60,094 bases of DNA from Patescibacteria group bacterium (GCA_041659905.1 JBAZXK010000003.1:1-60094), one strand, 5' to 3'; positions 16,675 through 37,056 are shown, numbered from the stretch's first letter. Notes: generated by a model from the letters alone, not told the origin. A program made the numbers and translations.

Positions 16675-17040
16675 ATGAAGCACACTTTTGTGAGAGTCGG
16701 CAAAATCTCAGTTAAAACACTTCAGGATATTGCCAATATCTTTTGTGTTCCTCTCGAGATACTAGTGGAGTCTTCTGGTTACGGACGTATAATCTTTAGC
16801 TGCGAAGCTAGAGAAACTCAAAAAGCTCGAAAAGCTCGGAAAACTCAGAAGGCTCGAAAAGCTCGGAAGAAATTGCTCTATGTAGCAACATTCCCTGCCC
16901 AAGTTCTGCGGGGTGAAACAGTGATCATCTATATTGATCCCTCTTTCTGCTCAGAAAGAGAATCTCTCGAGTCATTCGATGAGCTGCCTCTGCGGCTCCA
17001 GAAATTCCTGGATTTGTTGTTGGACCTCTGGTTGTCATAA
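16675..17040 (+). CDS. hypothetical protein with an N-terminal HTH-like segment and a K/R-rich internal repeat
   Basis: 121 aa. ISVKTLQDIANIFCVPLEILV resembles helices 2-3 of an XRE-type HTH. Contains TQKARKARK twice. Confidence 0.45.
   Translation: MKHTFVRVGKISVKTLQDIANIFCVPLEILVESSGYGRIIFSCEARETQKARKARKTQKARKARKKLLYVATFPAQVLRGETVIIYIDPSFCSERESLESFDELPLRLQKFLDLLLDLWLS
16816..16869 (+). repeat. in-frame tandem duplication, 2 x 27 nt
   Basis: actcaaaaagctcgaaaagctcggaaa / actcagaaggctcgaaaagctcggaag, 24 of 27 identical, encoding TQKARKARK twice. Confidence 0.85.
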
Positions 17041-30200: not shown

Positions 30201-30887
30201 ATGACACATCAGCCTACCTCTAATCCAGCTGACAAGGAAAATACCGTCAGTGAAGGTCTTGCTATCCATTTGGATCGCATGATTGAAGACGCCACTCGGA
30301 AGTATCCAGGTGGAACAGCCAAGGCCAATCTTGCGAAAGGCCATCCTGGCTTTGTCAAACGGCTCTGGGAGATCTTCGACGAACTGGCCGACGAGCAGGC
30401 CCTGCATCTGCCGATCATCGAGCGTCCGGCATGGAAGGTTCTGCAACGAACCTGCAACGATGCGAAGAGTTACATCTCCGCACTCGAATCGGGCGGATAC
30501 AAGATCGGTAACTGGGCCAGAGACATCATGAACAAACTGGCCTTTATGGCAGGATTCGATGTCAACAGCGTCGAACTGATGTTAGCTACTACCAAGGAAC
30601 TGACTGGCAAAGACACAGCTACTACTACTGAGATCTTTGATGCCATCCGAAAAGTTGGCAGTCTTTGCCCGGCATGGGCAGGACCTGAATTGCGCAAGCA
30701 ATACAGTGACCAGCCCAATGGCGAGTGGTTACGCATCGCCATGGAACCCATCGTGGATTCCAATGGCGGTCCGGGCCTCTTCAGCGTTGAGCGCGATGGC
30801 AGCGGCCTGTGGTTGGACTACTACTTTGACGTCCCCGACCACTTCTGGCATGCCGATGACCGGTGGGTCTTCTGCCGTCGCAAGTAA
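30201..30887 (+). CDS. DGR variable (target) protein, no signal peptide; VR forms the C-terminal 43 codons
   Basis: 228 aa. SD aagggag lies upstream. The C-terminus is VDSNGGPGLFSVERDGSGLWLDYYFDVPDHFWHADDRWVFCRRK. The gene is visibly GC-richer than its neighbours, which produces many spurious overlapping ORFs. Confidence 0.85.
   Translation: MTHQPTSNPADKENTVSEGLAIHLDRMIEDATRKYPGGTAKANLAKGHPGFVKRLWEIFDELADEQALHLPIIERPAWKVLQRTCNDAKSYISALESGGYKIGNWARDIMNKLAFMAGFDVNSVELMLATTKELTGKDTATTTEIFDAIRKVGSLCPAWAGPELRKQYSDQPNGEWLRIAMEPIVDSNGGPGLFSVERDGSGLWLDYYFDVPDHFWHADDRWVFCRRK
30753..30881 (+). repeat. DGR variable region (VR)
   Basis: A 129-nt match to 31226-31354 with 18 mismatches, all at TR adenines. 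It starts on a codon boundary and ends 3 nt before the stop codon. Confidence 0.9.
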
Positions 30888-30937
30888 CTCTTGGCACTTT
30901 GCTCTTTGCCCTTTTGGGCCCTTTGAACTTGACTCTT

Positions 30938-30965
30938 ACCCGCGTTCGCAAGAACGCGGGTTTTC
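30938..30965 (+). terminator. rho-independent terminator after the target gene
   Basis: acccgcgttc-gcaa-gaacgcgggt followed by tttt. Confidence 0.7.
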
Positions 30966-31225
30966 TGTATCTGGTAAACTAAATATGGAATTAGGCAAAT
31001 AATGCCAGCGATCACGGTTGTTGGCGGCCGAACCCAGTATCCATGCAATGAGAATATTCTCGACCAAGGTTTGGAATAGAGGTTGCATGCAGAAACTTCA
31101 AAAAATGAAGATACTTGGTGAAAGATATTCAGGCATTGAAGATGCCGCATAAAATACAACTCTAAAATCCTGCCGCTAGTTGGGTGGATCAAGGAGTGGT
31201 GACAAAGGATAATATCTTTCACGAC

Positions 31226-31354
31226 GTGGATTCCAATGGCGATCCGAACATCTTCAACGTTGAACACGATGACAACGACCTGTGGTTGAACTACAACTAT
31301 GACAACCCCGACAACTTCTGGAATGCCGATAACCGGTGGGTCTTCTGCCGTCGC
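31226..31354 (+). repeat. DGR template region (TR)
   Basis: Non-coding copy of VR, rich in AAC/AAT triplets (34 adenines). It would read VDSNGDPNIFNVEHDDNDLWLNYNYDNPDNFWNADNRWVFCRR. Confidence 0.9.
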
Positions 31355-31356
31355 TA

Positions 31357-31725
31357 CTATCTTTGTTTCTCTCCTGGGCATCCGGGAGAGTTTTGTTTGT
31401 TGAGTTGGCCTAACCAACCTCCCAGCATTTTGCCGATTTCATCCAGAGGCGTGGACAGGGCTATATACTTTTTGCCATCTAATGATTCAGTTTCCCAGAG
31501 AATCATTAAAAACACCTTGATGGTATCCAGTTTACGAATTGCCAATTTTACATAAGGAGCTTTCTCAGTGCGCGGAAGAAAACCTGCTTCAGCTACCGCC
31601 TCAATTATGGCAGTAAATAAGTTATCCACCTTTATCCCCAAAGAGTACCGATGGGTTTTAGGCAAGGTGTTATGATAGCCGTGCCAGAGGATGTAAGCAT
31701 CCTTCAGCTTTTGTAATACCGGCAA
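31357..31725 (-). CDS. avd: Avd-like accessory variability determinant (four-helix-bundle protein, 23S-rRNA-IVS-protein family)
   Basis: 122 aa from a TTG start. YSLGIKVDNLFTAIIEAVAEA...YVKLAIRKLDTIKVFLMILWE...LDEIGKMLGGWL has the helical heptad pattern of this family. The gene sits between TR and the RT but on the opposite strand. Confidence 0.75.
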   Translation of the reverse strand: MPVLQKLKDAYILWHGYHNTLPKTHRYSLGIKVDNLFTAIIEAVAEAGFLPRTEKAPYVKLAIRKLDTIKVFLMILWETESLDGKKYIALSTPLDEIGKMLGGWLGQLNKQNSPGCPGEKQR

Positions 31726-31730
31726 CAGAA

Positions 31731-31756
31731 GTGTGTGTGTGTGTGTGTGTGTGTGT
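31731..31756. repeat. (GT)13 dinucleotide microsatellite
   Basis: 26 nt of perfect GT repeats, 5 nt from the avd TTG start codon and 19 nt upstream of the RT ATG. Confidence 0.98.
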
Positions 31757-31775
31757 GGATATCTTTACTTGCCAT

Positions 31776-32882
31776 ATGAAAATTTCTAAAGGATATTATG
31801 AAAATATTATCTCACTTGAAAACCTGCTTGGAGCTTGGCAGGAGTTTGCGGTAGACAAACATTCAAGAAAAGATGTGCAACAGTTCCAAAGAGACTTGAT
31901 GGCTAATATTATTGAATTGCACCGAGATTTAGAATCTGGCGACTATCGCCATTCAGCTTATAGCCCATTTAAGATATCCGATCCTAAACCCCGAAACATT
32001 CATAAGGCAAGTGTTAGAGACAGATTGCTTCATAGGGCAATTTACCGAGTCCTATATCCAATTTGGGATAAAACTTTTATCTATGACAGTTATTCCTGCC
32101 GGAATAACAAAGGCACTCATAAGGCGTTTACTAAACTAGAGAATGTCTCCAGAAAGATAAGCAAGAATTATACCCACCCCTGTTTTGCCCTCAAGCTGGA
32201 TATCCGCAAGTTCTTTGACAGCATAGACCATGAAATACTAATGGGCTTATTGCGCGAGAGAATTGAGGATAAGAAATTATTAGAGTTATTGGAAAATATT
32301 ATTCAGAGCTTTTCTGTCTGTCATGCTGAATTTATTTCTCGTCATTCTGGGGAGCCTCTAAAGGCGACTCCAGAATCGTATAATAATCAATCTATACGAT
32401 CCTGGACAAGCCAGGATGACGCAGAAAGCAGGGGTATGCCATTGGGAAATCTCACCTCACAGTTATTCGCTAATGTTTATTTAGACCCGCTGGATAAGTT
32501 TGCTAAACATCATTTGAAAGCCAAGCATTATCTCCGGTATGCCGATGATTTTGTCTTTCTGTCTGATAACCCGGATGAATTACTGGGTTATCTGATAGAA
32601 GTAAATCGGTTTCTGAAAGCTAAGCTCAAGCTGAATATCCATCCCAATAAGATATATTTAAGAAAACTTAATTGGGGCATAGATTATGTCGGTTATGTGG
32701 CCTTACCTCACTATGCCATTCCCAGAAAGAAAACTGTCAAACGAATCTTCAAAAAATTAATCTATCTCAAAGAGTATTGCCCAGAGCGAATCCCAGTAAC
32801 CATGCCATCTTATTTGGGGTATTTAAGGCATGCAGATACCCATCATTTAGTATGCTGTTTACTGCAAAGATTTTCCGAATGA
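31776..32882 (+). CDS. DGR-type reverse transcriptase
   Basis: PRNIHKASVRDRLLH (motif 1), LDIRKFFDSIDH (motif A), MPLGNLTSQLFANVYL (the SQ-containing motif B typical of DGR RTs), YLRYADDFVF (YxDD). The ATG at 31776 is preferred over the GTG at 31731 inside the GT repeat. Confidence 0.88.
   Translation: MKISKGYYENIISLENLLGAWQEFAVDKHSRKDVQQFQRDLMANIIELHRDLESGDYRHSAYSPFKISDPKPRNIHKASVRDRLLHRAIYRVLYPIWDKTFIYDSYSCRNNKGTHKAFTKLENVSRKISKNYTHPCFALKLDIRKFFDSIDHEILMGLLRERIEDKKLLELLENIIQSFSVCHAEFISRHSGEPLKATPESYNNQSIRSWTSQDDAESRGMPLGNLTSQLFANVYLDPLDKFAKHHLKAKHYLRYADDFVFLSDNPDELLGYLIEVNRFLKAKLKLNIHPNKIYLRKLNWGIDYVGYVALPHYAIPRKKTVKRIFKKLIYLKEYCPERIPVTMPSYLGYLRHADTHHLVCCLLQRFSE
32319..32422. repeat. in-frame insertion of a MITE-like repeat inside the RT gene
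   Basis: gtcatgctgaatttatttc...gtcattctgg...cctggacaagccaggatgac uses the same modules as intergenic repeats at 21567, 41367, 46845 and 47158. It encodes roughly 35 extra residues (VCHAEFISRHSGEPLKATPESYNNQSIRSWTSQDD) between RT motifs A and B. Confidence 0.65.
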
Positions 32883-32922
32883 TTAAGAATAAGTTGGCGT
32901 GGTTTCAGGAGCGTGATAATAT

Positions 32923-32947
32923 ATACCTATACCTATGGTGGAGGTAT
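32923..32947. promoter_or_regulatory. candidate CsoR operator overlapping a -10-like element
   Basis: atacct-N13-aggtat inverted repeat (tacc...ggta core) just downstream of tgataat (32914-32920) and upstream of csoR. Confidence 0.3.
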
Positions 32948-32969
32948 GTTATATTCTAAAACTACGCAT

Positions 32970-33248
32970 ATGCAAACAGAGAACAAAAAACAGGAAAGTT
33001 TGGTGAGTTTCAAAAAAGCCCACAGCCATTTAGGAAATATTATCAAAATGGTGGAGCGGGGGGATTATTGTATCGACATTATGCAACAGAACTTAGCTGT
33101 AATCGGCCTCCTAAAATCCGCCCATGCCAAATTAATGGAGAATCATCTTAAGGGCTGTTTTACTAACGCTATCCAAACCAACAGCACGGCCAAGAAAGAA
33201 AAGATGATTGAAGAGATTCTGAGTGTTACTAAGATGTTTAATAAGTAA
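32970..33248 (+). CDS. csoR: CsoR/RcnR-family metal-sensing transcriptional repressor
   Basis: A roughly 92-aa helical protein. KKAHSHLGNIIKMVERGDYCIDIMQQNLAVIGLLKSAHAKLMENHLKGC fits the DUF156 pattern with Cys/His/Cys ligand positions. The start is uncertain (32913, 32946 or 32970). Confidence 0.75.
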   Translation: MQTENKKQESLVSFKKAHSHLGNIIKMVERGDYCIDIMQQNLAVIGLLKSAHAKLMENHLKGCFTNAIQTNSTAKKEKMIEEILSVTKMFNK

Positions 33249-33394
33249 GAAGTAACCCCTCTCCGCCAGTTGGCGGATTCGCTCGGGGGATAATAGTTCT
33301 CATTTCATTCGAACAGTAATAATTTTATTTTTCGAGTGAAATCGCTTTCTGCGATGGAGTCGAGAAATTATATATAAGAAAGAGAGAGTTATAT

Positions 33395-34756
33395 ATGCAA
33401 AAACACACCTACTATGTCAAAGGTATGCACTGCGCTTCCTGTGAGATCTTAATTGAAAAAGAACTCTTGTCTTTCCCCAGTGTTGAACTTGCGGATGCAA
33501 CTCTCACCAACGGGCAGGTTAATATAGGTTTCAAACATGACAGGCCGAGTCTTGAGAAATTGAATGAATTATTCAGGGAAAACGGATATGTTTTTTCGGA
33601 CCACCCTTTCCCTAAAGAAAGCTCGGATTGGTTAAAGCCGATCCTCTGGGCCGGGCTGATTATTACAATTTTTATTCTGGTAATAAAATTAGGTTTGGCT
33701 TCTTTTGTCAGCGTCAATTCCCAGAGTTCTTTGGGAGTATTCTTTATCTTTGGTTTGTTGGCGGGAATTTCCGGTTGTGCCGCCCTGATCGGCGGGCTGG
33801 TACTGTCTCTCTCAAAACAATGGCTGGAAATGTACAGCCCTTCTGCCAGCTTAACTGCAAAAATGATTCCGCATACTCTATTTAATGTCGGACGCATTAT
33901 TTCTTATGGTCTTTTAGGGCTGGCTCTGGGATTTCTGGGAGAAAGAATTCAATTCTCTCCAGTTATTACAGCTGTAATCGTGTTGGCCGTATCAGGACTC
34001 ATGTTGTTGTTGGCCTTACAGATGATGGGAGTTAAAACATTTAGTCGATTGCGCATAGCTTTGCCTAAAAACCTGACTGGGAAAATTTACGCAGGAGAGC
34101 GGAAGGGCGGTTGGTTCTATCCTTTGTTTGTTGGGTTTTTGACAGTGTTGCTTCCTTGCGGTTTTACAATTATTGCGGAAGGAGCGGCTATCTTATCCGG
34201 GTCCCCATGGCGCGGATTGTTGATTATGTTTTTCTTTGTTTTAGGTACGATGTTACCGCTAATGGCCATCGGGGCCTCCAGCGTCAAACTGGGGAGTAAT
34301 CAAAAATCTTCCGAAGCATTTTTAAAGACGGCCGGGCTGCTAATTATTTTCTTTATTATATTTAATTTGAATACTCAATTTGGCCTGGTGCGATATCTAT
34401 CAAATTTTATAAGCAACCTGGGAGCTGTTGAGAATTTGGAGGGTCAATCAGGAAATAACGCATTGCCGATACCGGATACCACCCAAGTGATTAAAGCAAT
34501 TTATTCGGACGCCAAAGGGTTGAACCCGAATTCTTTTACTATCAAAGTTGGCCAACCGGTGCGACTGGAGATAGAAGTGAAGGATGATGTCTACGGTTGC
34601 ATGAGCACTATTTTAATTCCGGGATTATGGGATCAACCCGAATTGATGCGCAAAGGCAAAACTGTGGTGATGGAATTTACTGTCCGCCGATCAGACACTT
34701 TCCCGATCACTTGCGCTATGGGAGTGCCTTGGGGCACCATCAAAGCTATTTATTAA
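33395..34756 (+). CDS. fusion membrane protein: N-terminal HMA (MxCxxC) domain, polytopic TauE/DsbD_2-like core, C-terminal cupredoxin-like domain
   Basis: [19 protein letters not shown], multiple TM helices, and a C-terminal beta domain (IKVGQPVRLEIEVKDDVYGCMSTILIPGL...FPITCAMG). Confidence 0.65.
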   Translation: MQKHTYYVKGMHCASCEILIEKELLSFPSVELADATLTNGQVNIGFKHDRPSLEKLNELFRENGYVFSDHPFPKESSDWLKPILWAGLIITIFILVIKLGLASFVSVNSQSSLGVFFIFGLLAGISGCAALIGGLVLSLSKQWLEMYSPSASLTAKMIPHTLFNVGRIISYGLLGLALGFLGERIQFSPVITAVIVLAVSGLMLLLALQMMGVKTFSRLRIALPKNLTGKIYAGERKGGWFYPLFVGFLTVLLPCGFTIIAEGAAILSGSPWRGLLIMFFFVLGTMLPLMAIGASSVKLGSNQKSSEAFLKTAGLLIIFFIIFNLNTQFGLVRYLSNFISNLGAVENLEGQSGNNALPIPDTTQVIKAIYSDAKGLNPNSFTIKVGQPVRLEIEVKDDVYGCMSTILIPGLWDQPELMRKGKTVVMEFTVRRSDTFPITCAMGVPWGTIKAIY

Positions 34757-34776
34757 TAATCCAATAAATCGTAATT

Positions 34777-37056
34777 ATGGAAATGAGGTTTAACATCAAG
34801 GGCATGCATTGTGCCAGTTGCGCCAGCATCATTCAAAAAGCCATTGCCGGATTAGACGGCGTCAAAACTGTGACGGCAAACTTTGCCACAGAAACGGCCA
34901 CTATCGATTTTGACGAGAATAAAATATCGCTCCAAGAGATGAACGAGCCCATCAAAAAACTTGGTTACGAGTTGGCGGCTGATGAAAGCAGTGGCCATGT
35001 GCATAATTACGATGAGCATGCGGATCATGCGGGAATGAACCAATCCAAATCCGACAAATTGCGCAGTTTAGAGCAGCAAAAAATTAAAGTCCAATTTTCT
35101 CTGCCGGTGGCGCTGGTGGTTTTTGTTGTAATGATCTGGGATATTCTCGCCAAAATTTTTCCGGTTGTCCCGCCGCTTTCCATCCCAATGCAGGTATTTA
35201 ATATGGTAGCTTTGGTGATTGCGACCGTCATGGTGTTTTGGGTGGGGTCGGCTTTTCTTCAGGGGGTGGTCCGGTTTGTGAAATACAGAGTAGCTAATAT
35301 GGATACTCTAATCGGTATCGGTACTCTCACCGCCTATACTTATAGCACGGCCATCACCTTATTCCCACAAATCATAGAAGCGCTCAAACTGCCCGAATAT
35401 ACCTATTTTGATGTCACGATTGTGGTCATCGGTTTCGTAACTTTAGGGAAATACTTAGAAGCCAGATCTAAAATTAAAACCGGCGCTGCGATTGAAAAAC
35501 TAATTGGTTTACAAGCCAAATCTGCGCTGGTGTGGCGAGATGGCGGGGAAATGGAAATTCCGATCAGCGAAGTTAGAATTGGTGACCTGGTGATAGTCAA
35601 GCCCGGCACAAAGATTCCAGTAGATGGAATTATTCAAGAAGGCCAATCGTCCATTGACGAAGCCATGGTGACCGGAGAACCGATACCGGTCGATAAAAAA
35701 GCTGGCGATGCAGTGATCGGGGGTACCATTAACAAGCACGGGGCTTTTAAATTCAAGGCCACTAAAGTGGGATCGGACACGATGTTGGCCCAGATCATTA
35801 AAATGGTGGAAGAGGCCCAAGGTTCCAAAGCGCCTATTCAAGAAATTGCTGATAAAATTTCCAGTATCTTTGTGCCGACCGTTTTAGTTATCGCTCTACT
35901 CGCTTTAGCAGTTTGGTTAACTATCGGAACATACTTTTTGGGATTCTCGGCGGCGTTATCGTTTGGCATTATGGCCTTCGTGGGTATTTTGGTTATTGCG
36001 TGTCCGTGCGCTTTAGGTCTCGCTACCCCCACGGCTATTATTGTGGGTGTGGGTAAGGGAGCGGAGCATGGTATCTTGATCAAGAATGCAGAAAGCTTAG
36101 AGAAATTAAGTACTGTTGGCGTAGTAGTTTTTGATAAAACTGGTACCATCACCAAAGGCAGTCCCGAAGTAACTGATATAGTTCCTGTAGATAAAACTAT
36201 AACGGAGAATGATGTTTTGATATTAGCTGGTAGCATTGAGAGATATTCGGAACATCCCTTAGCTCAAGCGATTGTGGCAGAAGCTAATAAACAAACCTTA
36301 CCCTTGCAGGACCCCACTGATTTTAAAGCCTTGGAAGGGGTAGGAGTGCAGGCCAAGTTGCAAAATGTGATGGTAATGGTGCGCAAACCAACTCCCTCGG
36401 AAGCGGATCTTCCAGAAATTCATCTTCTGCAAGCCCAAGGCAAAACGGTAATTATTGTGGAAAGTGATGGCCACATCCAAGGATTTATCGCTTTGAGCGA
36501 TACCATTAAAGACAACGCCAAAACCGCTATCGATGGTCTGCATAAAAAAGGCATTAAGGCGATTATGTTGACCGGCGATAATCAATTAGCCGCCAAATAT
36601 ATTGCCGCTCAAGTTGATATTGATGAAGTTATCGCCGGAGTGCTGCCTCAACAAAAAGCGCAAAAAATCAAAGAGTTGCAGACAGCAGGAATAAAAGTTG
36701 CCATGGTGGGAGATGGCATCAATGATGCTCCAGCCTTAGTCCAAGCGGATGTGGGTATTGCAATGGCTACCGGCACCGATGTAGCGATGGAGTCAGCCGG
36801 AATCACTTTGATTAAAGGCGATCTACAAAAATTGATCCAAGCTATTAGCTTAGCAAAAGCAACTATGACTACCATCAAACAAAATTTATTCTGGGCATTT
36901 ATTTACAATGTGGTAGGCATCCCAATAGCTGCGGGGGCTCTGTATCCCATTTGGGGGATATTTCTTAATCCAATTTTTGCCGGGTTGGCGATGGCAGGCA
37001 GCAGTGTGTCAGTGGTCGGGAATTCTTTGAGGTTGCGTGCCAAAAAAATATTTTAA
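34777..37056 (+). CDS. copA: copper-translocating P1B-type ATPase
   Basis: [21 protein letters not shown] ([11 protein letters not shown]), DKTGTIT, HP (SEHPLA), GDGINDAP. Confidence 0.93.

What the first reader, a model, noticed from the sequence alone, without database searches (positions are those of the whole stretch)
30201..32882. Complete diversity-generating retroelement with strictly adenine-specific VR/TR divergence
The last 129 nt of the coding part of the 228-aa ORF (VR, 30753-30881) are repeated at 31226-31354 (TR).
- Hand alignment gives 111 identities and 18 mismatches. Every mismatch is an A in TR, replaced in VR by G (12), C (3) or T (3).
- That is 18 of the 34 TR adenines and 0 of the 95 non-A positions.
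- The variable adenines sit at codon positions 1 and 2 of AAC/AAT/GAC-type TR triplets. Sixteen codons differ, giving TR NIFNVEHDDND...NYNYDNPDNFWNADN versus VR GLFSVERDGSG...DYYFDVPDHFWHADD. Such triplets cannot mutate to stop codons.
- Identity ends abruptly after the GC-rich ggtgggtcttctgccgtcgc, which is IMH-like.
- Next to TR lie an Avd-like four-helix protein gene and an RT with the DGR-specific LGNLTSQ..N and YADD motifs.
Mutagenic retrohoming has therefore operated on this locus.
Basis: partly seen in the sequence, partly recalled or inferred. Interest (0 to 1): 0.85.

Follow-up and report, generated by a model that had tools for sequence, protein, structure and literature searches.

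The report
Complete Patescibacteria diversity-generating retroelement
This is a genuine, complete diversity-generating retroelement (a reverse-transcriptase system that rewrites the tip of one protein at template adenines) in a Patescibacteria chromosome; it belongs to an already catalogued type, but its relatives share some apparently undescribed control sequences.

Summary
The observation reproduces exactly. VR 30753-30881 and TR 31226-31354 are 129-nt direct repeats with 18 mismatches, all at TR adenines (18 of 34 A, 0 of 95 non-A; chance about 5e-13). The RT (31776-32882) is closest to the Bordetella DGR RT, an Avd gene lies between TR and RT on the opposite strand, and the host is a Patescibacteria (CPR) bacterium. 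This TR-(avd)-RT layout is the published B3 architecture typical of CPR DGRs, so the element is a new member of a known kind.

Thirty-three related loci share:
- a covarying ~115-nt RNA element just 5' of TR;
- a 9-bp tetraloop hairpin just 3' of TR;
- a CTTGG-type heptad array just 3' of VR;
- a simple-sequence repeat (poly-G, here (GT)14) in the tiny avd-RT spacer.

The 155-residue VR-bearing domain belongs to a very large family with no Pfam model. Its confident AlphaFold model matches no solved structure, so the C-type-lectin expectation is not confirmed.

Current activity is unproven. Two other assemblies carry an identical VR, and the RT allele changes abruptly at the (GT)n tract relative to a sister contig.

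The parts
30201..30887 (+). Target (variable-protein) gene, 228 aa: a lineage-variable helical N-terminal part and a conserved ~155-aa C-terminal domain that ends in the VR. No signal peptide or TM segment is evident by eye.
   Evidence: ORF. No Pfam, NCBIfam or PDB sequence hit. 61 close homologues and 6664 cluster representatives at E<=1e-3. AlphaFold pLDDT 90.5 for the full protein and 95.0 for the domain.
30753..30881 (+). Variable repeat (VR), the last 43 codons of the target.
   Evidence: 129-nt repeat of TR with 18 mismatches, all at TR adenines.
30860..30881 (+). A-free, GC-rich 22-nt 3' end of VR, identical to the 3' end of TR (IMH-like segment).
   Evidence: Sequence. The longest A-free run near the TR 3' end has a median of 22 nt in 33 related TRs.
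30888..30931 (+). Array of CTTGG/CTTTG-type motifs spaced 7-8 nt apart, directly 3' of the VR and stop codon. It includes a small hairpin GCCC-TTTT-GGGC (30908-30919). This is a candidate VR-specific recognition element.
   Evidence: CTTGG occurs 58 times against 4.1 expected in the 75 nt after 33 VRs, with spacings of 7 or 8 nt. That is 23.4 per kb against 1.29 per kb background, with 0 after the TRs. It is the only such cluster in the window.
30938..30961 (+). GC-rich hairpin followed by a T run: an intrinsic-terminator-like end of the target gene.
   Evidence: Equivalent hairpins are visible after the array in most related loci.
31096..31222 (+). Structured RNA element 5' of TR. P0 hairpin 31096-31110; P1 31118-31129 paired with 31211-31222; P2 31132-31135 with 31143-31146; P3 31159-31167 with 31189-31197. 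P1 ends 3 nt before TR.
   Evidence: RNAalifold on 33 loci: 23 pairs, 17 with compensatory changes. 96.7% of cells are paired against 30-52% in slid controls, and 0 of 500 shuffles reach the observed values. Covariance model R1 gives 47 hits, all on the target strand; in the loci with a mapped TR each hit ends at the TR start, and there is one per TR. No other hit in the window and none in BPP-1. There is a sub-threshold full-length match to Rfam RT-16 (21.8 bits against GA 50).
31226..31354 (+). Template repeat (TR).
   Evidence: 34 adenines, 33 of them at codon positions 1 or 2 of the VR frame.
31369..31402 (+). 9-bp stem with a GCAT tetraloop (31369-31390) 14 nt after TR, followed by TTTTGTTTGTT. 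This is the putative Avd-binding stem-loop and/or terminator of the TR RNA. It overlaps the 3' end of avd on the other strand.
   Evidence: a hairpin is present in all 33 loci and a T-rich tail in 27, with stems that differ by compensatory changes. The shape matches the 9-bp tetraloop 'Avd-binding stem-loop' predicted downstream of TR in 207 of 278 DGRs.
31357..31725 (-). avd (accessory variability determinant), 122 aa, TTG start, antisense to TR and RT.
   Evidence: NF033474 DivGenRetAVD E 5.7e-16 over 1-103 of 104 profile positions; PF22296 bAvd E 3e-7. It is on the minus strand between TR and RT in all 35 related loci where it is present. There is C-terminal similarity to BPP-1 Avd.
31731..31757 (.). 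(GT)13.5 simple-sequence repeat in the 50-nt spacer between the divergent avd and RT start codons.
   Evidence: Related loci carry poly-G of 8-12 nt (mode 10), or (GT)n or (GA)n, at the same place: 29 of 34 spacers. 25 of 30 G/C runs of at least 8 nt in 704.5 kb lie in these 1.8 kb. The tract has 14 units here and 11 in the sister contig L083.
31776..32882 (+). DGR reverse transcriptase, 368 aa, with a lineage-specific in-frame insertion of about 33-40 aa (32313-32432) between RT motifs 3 and 4.
   Evidence: bRT-like. Motifs are located. The insertion is absent from L083 and L001, and present with a different sequence in L005.

Best explanation
The locus is a chromosomal diversity-generating retroelement of the Patescibacteria 'target - TR - (avd) - RT' type. 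Shown: the VR/TR pair with adenine-only divergence, a bRT-like RT, an Avd-like protein, and four conserved flanking elements. Inferred from the Bordetella paradigm: a short TR RNA is transcribed on the + strand. It comprises the 5' three-way-junction element (31096-31222), the TR, and the 9-bp tetraloop hairpin with its U-rich tail. The RT-Avd complex binds this RNA and copies TR into cDNA, inserting random nucleotides opposite adenines. The cDNA then replaces the VR of the 228-aa target. The A-free 22-nt 3' end supplies invariant homology. The VR-only 3' flank (the CTTGG heptad array plus hairpins) marks which copy is the recipient. Because 33 of 34 TR adenines are at codon positions 1 or 2 of AAY/GAY-type codons, up to about 5e19 protein variants can be made without creating stops. 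All variation falls in a 43-residue C-terminal surface of a small, apparently cytoplasmic protein whose ligand is unknown.
For: Strict A-specificity, p about 5e-13. Codon placement and absence of possible stops. RT closest to bRT (8ub7, 1.7e-43, against 8e-19 for group II RT), with 28% full-length identity to Brt, and its tblastn phage matches include RTs of Bordetella, Vibrio and Faecalibacterium phages. Avd profile matches cover the whole profile length. In 33 related loci, 566 of 590 VR/TR mismatches are at TR-A, and every locus with avd has the same gene order and orientation. This equals the B3 architecture reported for 90% of CPR DGRs. Natural hypervariation occurs in the family: 74 homologue pairs are 99.5% identical over the 107 aa before the VR but only 72% identical within it. 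The covarying 5' element, the hairpin after TR and the VR-specific array are conserved. The host is Patescibacteria by ribosomal protein L1, and the neighbours are housekeeping genes with the same GC content.
Against: No evidence of ongoing activity at this locus. Contigs L083 and L084 from other assemblies have a VR identical to the window, and a scan of JGI metagenome contigs with the A-degenerate TR pattern found nothing. One homologue cluster of 28 sequences also has an almost fixed VR. The RT carries an unusual insertion of about 33-40 aa. From the (GT)n tract onward it is only about 79% identical in nucleotides to the RT of the otherwise identical sister contig, so the RT may not be the original partner of this TR and avd. 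Avd scores are below the curated cut-offs. The roles assigned to the RNA and DNA elements are inferred from position and conservation only.
Confidence: 0.9

Rival explanations
1. A relic: a DGR that diversified the VR in the past but is now silent or defective. Possible causes are the RT insertion, an RT allele swapped in by recombination, or the simple-sequence repeat sitting in an 'off' length.
For: The VR is identical in three independent assemblies. There is an insertion of about 33-40 aa between RT motifs 3 and 4. The RT allele changes exactly at the (GT)n tract. No VR variants were found in JGI contigs.
Against: All ORFs are intact and the catalytic YADD and LGNLTSQ motifs are preserved. 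TR and VR have no non-A differences at all, whereas decaying pairs accumulate them. The insertion site corresponds to where group II RTs carry their 3a insertion (own knowledge), and a related RT (L005) tolerates an insertion at the same site. Three assemblies are a very small sample.
Confidence: 0.3
2. The cassette as shown is a mosaic. Either an assembly artefact or a real recombination at the (GT)n tract has joined the target-TR-avd module of one strain to the RT and downstream genes of another.
For: L083 is 100% identical to window 27201 to about 31730, then about 79% identical up to 32273, and unalignable beyond that. The window's RT 3' half and the downstream CsoR-like gene are syntenic with L005 at 77% nt identity.
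Against: Both alternatives still place a full-length DGR RT directly after avd, so the conclusion 'complete DGR' does not depend on which is right. The repeat is only 27 nt, too short to mislead a k=141 assembly by itself. Repeat length differs (14 against 11 units), as expected for two real haplotypes.
Confidence: 0.35
3. An ordinary duplicated gene fragment that diverged by point mutation or gene conversion and lies next to an unrelated retron, group II or defence RT.
For: NCBIfam's best named model for the RT is the group II intron RT/maturase (137.8 bits, far below its cut-off of 300), with weaker Drt and retron hits. Some phage homologues are annotated 'retron-type'.
Against: 18 of 18 mismatches fall at TR-A (5e-13). 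The same bias holds in 33 loci. NCBIfam and Pfam gave no DGR-RT-specific model match, so their ranking is uninformative. The PDB ranking puts bRT 24 orders of magnitude ahead. There are no intron RNA domains or maturase/X domain, no msr/msd, and no Rfam group II or retron hit.
Confidence: 0.02

Closest known systems
Bordetella phage BPP-1 DGR (mtd-avd-TR-brt)
   Same: A bRT-like RT (28% identity, E 3e-48) and an Avd-like four-helix protein. A 129-nt TR/VR pair (134 nt in BPP-1) at the 3' end of the target. Adenine-only mutagenesis with AAY codons. A GC-rich A-free 3' end, and a hairpin just after TR like the Avd-binding stem-loop.
   Different: Here avd lies after TR on the opposite strand, so there is no 140-nt Sp spacer between TR and RT. 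The conserved structured RNA lies 5' of TR, and model R1 finds nothing in BPP-1. The VR flank carries a CTTGG heptad array. The element is chromosomal in a Patescibacteria cell, not in a phage. The target is a small protein with no detectable similarity to Mtd (hhalign probability 0.1%).
CPR/Patescibacteria DGRs: 'B3' architecture TR-(avd)-RT of Wu et al. 2018 (PMC5758913) and DGR clade 2 of Roux et al. 2021 (PMC8144416)
   Same: Identical gene order and orientation. The host group is the same. The targets have no recognisable domains or TM segments. The VR belongs to the unclassified kind ('UVR' or ungrouped).
   Different: Nothing in architecture; this is the family the locus belongs to. I could not check whether this VR class is one of UVR1-6, because the supplements are not held. 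I did not find the flanking RNA and DNA elements or the spacer repeat described in the papers I could search.
Rfam RT-16 (RF03019) and RT-10 motifs of Weinberg et al. 2017 (PMC5737381)
   Same: RT-associated structured RNAs. RT-10 is the BPP-1 Sp region, and the authors guessed that other RT motifs serve other DGRs. RT-16 has the same layout as the element here: a leading hairpin, a long-range helix enclosing inner hairpins, a conserved AUAAAAUACA stretch, and GGU after the last hairpin.
   Different: The score of 21.8 bits is below the gathering score of 50 in the window. No related locus reaches any Rfam threshold. The element is therefore at best a divergent relative of RT-16 and is not covered by the current model.
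Simple-sequence-repeat phase variation in promoter spacers, such as (TA)n between the divergent hifA/hifB genes of Haemophilus influenzae and poly-G/C in Neisseria porA/opc (own knowledge)
   Same: A hypermutable repeat of typical contingency-locus length (G8-12, (GT)9-14) lies in a very short spacer between two divergently transcribed genes. Its length differs between otherwise identical haplotypes.
   Different: No promoter has been mapped here, and no expression or switching data exist. The repeat could instead be a leader element of the avd or RT mRNA.

Membership tests
Diversity-generating retroelement (DGR) | A TR/VR repeat pair whose differences fall (almost) only at TR adenines | tested here: met
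   18 of 18 mismatches are at TR-A and 0 of 95 at non-A; p about 5e-13.
Diversity-generating retroelement (DGR) | An RT of the DGR lineage ([I/L]GxxxSQ in motif 4, YxDD, closest to bRT rather than to group II, retron or DRT enzymes) | tested here: met
   PDB: bRT 8ub7 at 1.7e-43, against 7.9e-19 for GsI-IIC RT and 2.6e-5 for Drt2. Full-length 28% identity to Brt. LGNLTSQ and YADD are present. No phylogenetic tree was built, and no DGR-RT-specific HMM was available.
Diversity-generating retroelement (DGR) | VR in frame inside a protein-coding target, with TR adenines at codon positions 1 and 2 and no possible stop codons | tested here: met
   33 of 34 A are at positions 1 or 2; 0 of 23 variable codons can become a stop.
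Diversity-generating retroelement (DGR) | An accessory protein (Avd) next to TR and RT | tested here: inconclusive
   There are end-to-end matches to NF033474 (58.7 bits, cut-off 80) and PF22296 (31.3 bits, cut-off 40), both below the curated thresholds. No PDB sequence hit. Conserved adjacency in 35 of 35 loci supports the assignment.
Diversity-generating retroelement (DGR) | IMH at the VR 3' end and a distinguishable IMH* at the TR 3' end | tested here: inconclusive
   An A-free GC-rich 22-mer is present, but it is identical in VR and TR. The two copies differ only from the stop codon onward: CTTGG array after VR, stem-loop after TR. Function is untested.
Diversity-generating retroelement (DGR) | Demonstrated mutagenic retrohoming (new VR variants arising) | not testable with these tools
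   Indirect only. The VR is identical in three assemblies of this lineage. VR-restricted variation is seen among near-identical homologues elsewhere.
CPR-type B3 architecture (Wu et al. 2018) | Core order TR-(avd)-RT with avd on the reverse strand, in a CPR host | tested here: met
   Coordinates; 35 of 35 relatives share the order; definition; host by ribosomal protein L1.
C-type-lectin-fold DGR variable proteins (Mtd, TvpA, AvpA, FGE-sulfatase/DUF1566 types) | The VR lies in a domain with detectable CLec/FGE fold or sequence similarity | tested here: not met
   The domain model has pLDDT 95. Foldseek against the PDB gives a best E of 0.66 and TM of at most 0.21 for the domain. The full-length model gives only marginal C-type lectin rows (TM 0.26-0.41, probability at most 0.10). 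No Pfam FGE-sulfatase or DUF1566 hit in 39 members at E<=1. The profile against PDB sequences finds nothing relevant. hhalign against Mtd gives probability 0.1%. The beta-alpha-alpha-beta(5) order of the last 100 residues would be compatible with a very divergent CLec fold, so absence is not proven.
Rfam RT-16 RNA (RF03019) | A score at or above the gathering threshold of 50 bits | tested here: not met
   21.8 bits in the window. No hit at threshold in 15 related loci.

The most novel reading that the evidence does not exclude
In this Patescibacteria DGR clade the mutator itself is under a contingency switch. A hypermutable simple-sequence repeat (poly-G of 8-12 nt, or (GT)n or (GA)n) is conserved in the 24-61-nt spacer between the divergent avd and RT genes. 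By slipped-strand length changes it would turn expression of the machinery on and off, so that only a subpopulation diversifies and useful VR variants can be locked in. This would go together with a clade-specific RNA/DNA grammar (a 5' RT-16-like element instead of a 3' Sp, and a CTTGG heptad array marking the VR) and a variable domain that is not a recognisable C-type-lectin fold.
Probability: 0.3. Interest if true: 0.7.

Novelty: new member of a known kind. Interest (0 to 1): 0.4.

Why it matters
As a DGR, the locus adds one more well-formed example to a catalogued CPR clade, which is of limited interest. Its value lies in what the comparison exposed.

- **An unmodelled target family.** The VR-bearing domain belongs to one of the largest DGR target families. 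It has at least 6664 clusters at 50% identity, no Pfam model and no structural match. This bears on the open question, raised by Roux et al. 2021, of whether every DGR scaffold is a C-type-lectin fold.
- **A testable set of cis elements.** The clade carries a sharply defined set of cis elements. These could be tested for how a DGR without a TR-RT spacer primes cDNA synthesis and tells VR from TR.
- **A possible on/off switch.** A simple-sequence repeat is conserved at the avd-RT promoter region. It suggests a testable answer to how cells restrain a targeted mutator.

Tried and rejected
- **Further VRs in the window.** An A-degenerate scan of both strands found none.
- **Population variants of this VR.** A scan of JGI metagenome contigs with the A-to-N TR pattern gave 0 hits. 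Exact-protein look-ups found only contigs with the identical VR. A look-up of the 122-aa Avd found nothing, and the 90-aa gene call found only L083.
- **Hypervariation inside the 90% cluster of P0058.** The VR is almost fixed there, so this was uninformative.
- **Fold assignment.** Two AlphaFold models and three Foldseek searches (PDB twice, BFVD once) gave no significant match. The profile against PDB sequences gave only a spurious hit to ribosome-recycling factor in the helical part.
- **N-terminal domains of longer family members.** Pfam found nothing except a weak PcfJ match.
- **MAFFT/RNAalifold on the TR 3' flank.** The hairpins were mis-registered, so I replaced this with per-locus folding.
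- **A 'cPRT-stop'-like duplex between the A-rich 5' leader and the U-rich tail after the hairpin.** Complementarity is high, but it is trivially A-run against U-run, so I do not claim it.
- **Rfam.** No family reaches threshold in the window or in 15 related loci. A suhB/mmgR row in L001 is only a resemblance of hairpin plus terminator.
- **Literature access.** The supplementary tables of Wu et al. 2018 and the paper of Paul et al. 2017 are not held.
Full report
**1. The observation**

Window 30753-30881 and 31226-31354 are ungapped 129-nt direct repeats with 111 identities. All 18 mismatches have A in the downstream copy (12 to G, 3 to C, 3 to T). The downstream copy holds 34 A and 95 other bases. 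The chance that 18 mismatches all land on A is 5e-13.

Similarity ends abruptly on both sides. No further copy exists in the window, even with all TR adenines wild-carded.

The upstream copy is the last 43 codons of the 228-aa ORF 30201-30887. In that frame, 33 of the 34 TR adenines are at codon positions 1 or 2. Ten of the 23 A-containing codons are AAC or AAT. None can become a stop codon, 16 codons differ, and about 5e19 protein variants are possible.

**2. The proteins**

*Reverse transcriptase.* The RT most likely starts at ATG 31776, because the ORF's GTG at 31731 lies inside a (GT)n tract.
- It matches the cryo-EM structure of the Bordetella DGR RT (8ub7) at E 1.7e-43. The best group II intron RT scores 7.9e-19, and DRT enzymes score about 1e-5.
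- It aligns over its full length with Brt of phage BPP-1 at 28% identity.
- LGNLTSQLFANVYL and YADD are present.
- NCBIfam and Pfam gave no DGR-RT-specific match, and their best named hit (group II RT/maturase) is far below its cut-off.

*Avd.* The 122-aa ORF 31357-31725 lies on the minus strand. It matches the DGR Avd models end to end but below their trusted cut-offs.

*Target.* It has no Pfam, NCBIfam or PDB sequence match.

**3. Host and context**

Flanking genes are housekeeping genes: trigger factor, DNA polymerase III delta', RarA/MgsA, CsoR and a copper ATPase, ribosomal protein L1, and TGT. GC content is even at about 0.44.

The closest named relatives of ribosomal protein L1 are from the Patescibacteria group and candidate division Kazan. 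The element is chromosomal in a CPR bacterium, not in a phage.

**4. Relatives**

- The target has 61 close homologues. One genome per species yielded 250 tblastn-confirmed relatives; the 78 loci kept come mostly from Patescibacteria MAGs, with a few from other phyla.
- A-biased VR/TR pairs were detected in 37 of the 82 loci fetched by then. In the 33-pair set analysed further (window plus 32 loci), 566 of 590 mismatches are at TR adenines.
- In all 35 loci with a detectable avd, the order is target(+), TR(+), avd(-), RT(+).
- This is the 'B3' architecture TR-(avd)-RT that Wu et al. 2018 found in 90% of their CPR DGRs. Roux et al. 2021 describe a Patescibacteria-restricted DGR clade whose targets lack recognisable domains. 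The locus is thus a member of a catalogued kind.

**5. Evidence that the family is diversified in nature**

Among 41 homologues of about 198 aa, 74 pairs are 99.5% identical over the 107 residues before the VR but only 72% identical in the 45-residue VR. The changes fall at fixed positions between invariant scaffold residues.

No such evidence exists for the window's own lineage. Two other assemblies carry the identical VR. A metagenome scan found no variants. One 28-member cluster of a relative has a nearly fixed VR.

**6. Cis elements shared by the clade**

- **(a) 5' RNA element.** Directly 5' of TR is a ~115-nt RNA element. It has a 12-bp long-range helix whose 3' strand ends 3 nt before TR, two inner hairpins and conserved loops.
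  - 23 pairs are predicted, 17 with compensatory changes.
  - 96.7% of cells are paired, against 30-52% when partners are slid, and no shuffle reaches the observed values.
  - A covariance model finds 47 copies in 768 kb, all on the target strand. In the loci with a mapped TR each copy ends at the TR start. It finds none in BPP-1.
  - In the window it gives a full-length but sub-threshold match to Rfam RT-16. RT-16 is one of the RT-associated motifs that Weinberg et al. 2017 suspected of serving DGRs. Related loci reach no Rfam threshold.
- **(b) Hairpin 3' of TR.** A stable hairpin lies 3-24 nt after TR. In the window it has 9 bp and a tetraloop, at 31369-31390. A T-rich tail follows in 27 of 33 loci, and the stems differ by compensatory changes. 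Its shape matches the 'Avd-binding stem-loop' that Handa et al. predict downstream of TR in 207 of 278 DGRs. It could also terminate the TR transcript.
- **(c) CTTGG array 3' of VR.** Directly after the VR stop codon is an array of CTTGG/CTTTG motifs spaced 7-8 nt apart. CTTGG occurs 58 times against 4.1 expected, or 23.4 per kb against 1.29 per kb. It is absent after all 33 TRs and unique within the window. A small hairpin and a terminator hairpin follow it. VR and TR are identical up to the stop codon, including an A-free 22-mer. This flank is therefore the obvious candidate for telling recipient from donor.
- **(d) Spacer repeat.** The 24-61-nt spacer between the divergent avd and RT start codons holds a simple-sequence repeat in 29 of 34 loci. 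It is usually poly-G of 8-12 nt, (GT)n in the window, L083 and L001, and (GA)n in L017.
  - Of 30 G/C runs of at least 8 nt in 704.5 kb, 25 lie in these 1.8 kb. Three more are at the same site in truncated or second cassettes.
  - The window has 14 GT units. The sister contig L083, identical over the preceding 4.5 kb, has 11.
  - Two searches of the paper library for DGRs together with homopolymer, simple-repeat or phase-variation terms surfaced no such report among the listed results.

**7. How it most likely works**

*Shown:* the parts, their conservation, and the adenine-specific footprint.

*Inferred from the Bordetella mechanism* (own knowledge of Liu 2002, Guo 2008 and Handa 2018):
- A short TR RNA (5' element, TR, hairpin) is bound by RT-Avd.
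- TR is copied with misincorporation opposite A.
- The cDNA replaces the VR, bounded at the 3' end by the A-free segment.

Because avd sits where BPP-1 has its Sp spacer, the structured 5' element may supply functions that Sp supplies in BPP-1. That is a hypothesis. The spacer repeat may act as a phase-variable switch for avd and/or RT. Alternatively it may be an unstructured C- or CA-rich leader of the Shine-Dalgarno-less avd mRNA, or part of the RT leader.

**8. The target**

AlphaFold gives confident models: pLDDT 90.5 for the whole protein and 95.0 for residues 74-228.
- Foldseek finds nothing significant in the PDB or BFVD.
- The profile finds no solved relative.
- No member hits FGE-sulfatase or DUF1566.
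- hhalign against Mtd gives probability 0.1%.

An exhaustive profile search finds 6664 cluster representatives at E<=1e-3 and 1778 at E<=1e-30. Some proteins carry two or three copies of the domain. The secondary-structure order of the last 100 residues (strand, two helices, five strands) would fit a very divergent C-type-lectin fold, but this is not demonstrated.

**9. Caveats on integrity**

From the (GT)n tract onward the window diverges from L083. Identity is about 79% through the RT 5' half and there is no alignment after 32273. The RT 3' half and the downstream gene are instead syntenic with L005, a Patescibacteria MAG.

The RT also carries an in-frame insertion of about 33-40 aa between motifs 3 and 4. 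L083 and L001 lack it, and L005 has a different sequence at the same site.

The cassette may therefore be a natural or assembly mosaic. Either way a full-length DGR RT follows avd.

**10. Verdict**

The element is a new member of a known kind, the Patescibacteria B3-type DGR. Interest is moderate. The DGR itself is ordinary for CPR genomes, but the clade-wide cis elements, the spacer repeat and the unmodelled target family are worth following up.

Noticed in passing
window 31731-31757; avd-RT spacers of L001, L005-L079: A simple-sequence repeat is conserved in the tiny divergent avd-RT spacer of this DGR clade: poly-G of 8-12 nt in most loci, (GT)n here and in L083 and L001, and (GA)n in L017. 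25 of the 30 G/C runs of at least 8 nt in 704.5 kb of loci lie in these spacers. The window has 14 GT units and L083 has 11. This may be a phase-variable switch for the mutator.
   Followed up: partly
window 31730-32273 and beyond, compared with L083 and L005: Sister contig L083 is 100% identical to the window from 27201 up to the (GT)n tract, about 79% identical through the RT 5' half, and unrelated after 32273. The window's RT 3' half and the downstream gene are syntenic with L005 instead. This indicates a recombination or assembly breakpoint at the repeat, with modular exchange between the target-TR-avd part and the RT.
   Followed up: partly
window 32313-32432: In-frame insertion of about 33-40 aa in the RT between motifs 3 and 4. 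It contains a short inverted repeat (ATTCTGG...CCAGAAT). It is absent from L083 and L001, and L005 has a different sequence at the same site. Origin and effect on activity are unknown.
   Followed up: partly
window 31096-31222; 47 hits of model R1 in related loci: A strongly covarying three-way-junction RNA lies immediately 5' of the TR. It resembles Rfam RT-16 in layout but scores below its threshold. L018 and L028 each carry two identical-scoring copies, which suggests a duplicated TR unit.
   Followed up: yes
window 30888-30931; 75 nt after VR in 33 loci: An array of CTTGG/CTTTG motifs with 7-8-nt spacing occurs only after VRs and never after TRs. The single-stranded junction of the 5' TR element also contains ACTTGG (31113-31118), so one factor might recognise both.
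   Followed up: partly
P0046 (homologue), C-terminus: This homologue reads through its stop codon into ...CRPRHSLHFSPSGF..., which resembles the frame-translated 3' flank of a TR. It is either an assembly jump from VR to TR or a homing event that copied sequence beyond the TR end.
   Followed up: no
L005 5424-7065 and 3249-3953: In this Patescibacteria MAG, the RT most similar to the window's RT (71% aa identity) serves a TR that matches VRs in two paralogous genes of a different, unrelated target family. A homologue of the window's target lies 3 kb upstream with no TR match detected in the 8.9 kb held for this locus.
   Followed up: no
P0085, P0086-P0088, P0201 (representative search): Some family members carry two or three tandem copies of the VR-bearing domain, or carry it at the end of a 634-aa protein. 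None of the extra regions has a Pfam match.
   Followed up: partly
L007 (Bryobacterales), L021 (Syntrophorhabdaceae chromosome), L064 and L068 (Verrucomicrobiota), several 'Gammaproteobacteria' MAGs: The target family, and in L007 the whole cassette with one TR and two VRs, also occurs in MAGs assigned to non-CPR phyla. This reflects either horizontal spread or binning errors.
   Followed up: no
window 32913-37056: Directly downstream of the RT lies a copper-resistance set: a CsoR-type metal-sensitive repressor, an HMA-DsbD_2 membrane protein, and a 759-aa ORF that by its sequence looks like a P-type ATPase (not scanned against profiles). The CsoR-like gene is syntenic with L005.
   Followed up: no
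window 16805-16868: A tandem repeat with period 9/27 nt (AAGCTCGAA units) lies in this stretch; I did not check whether it is coding.
   Followed up: no
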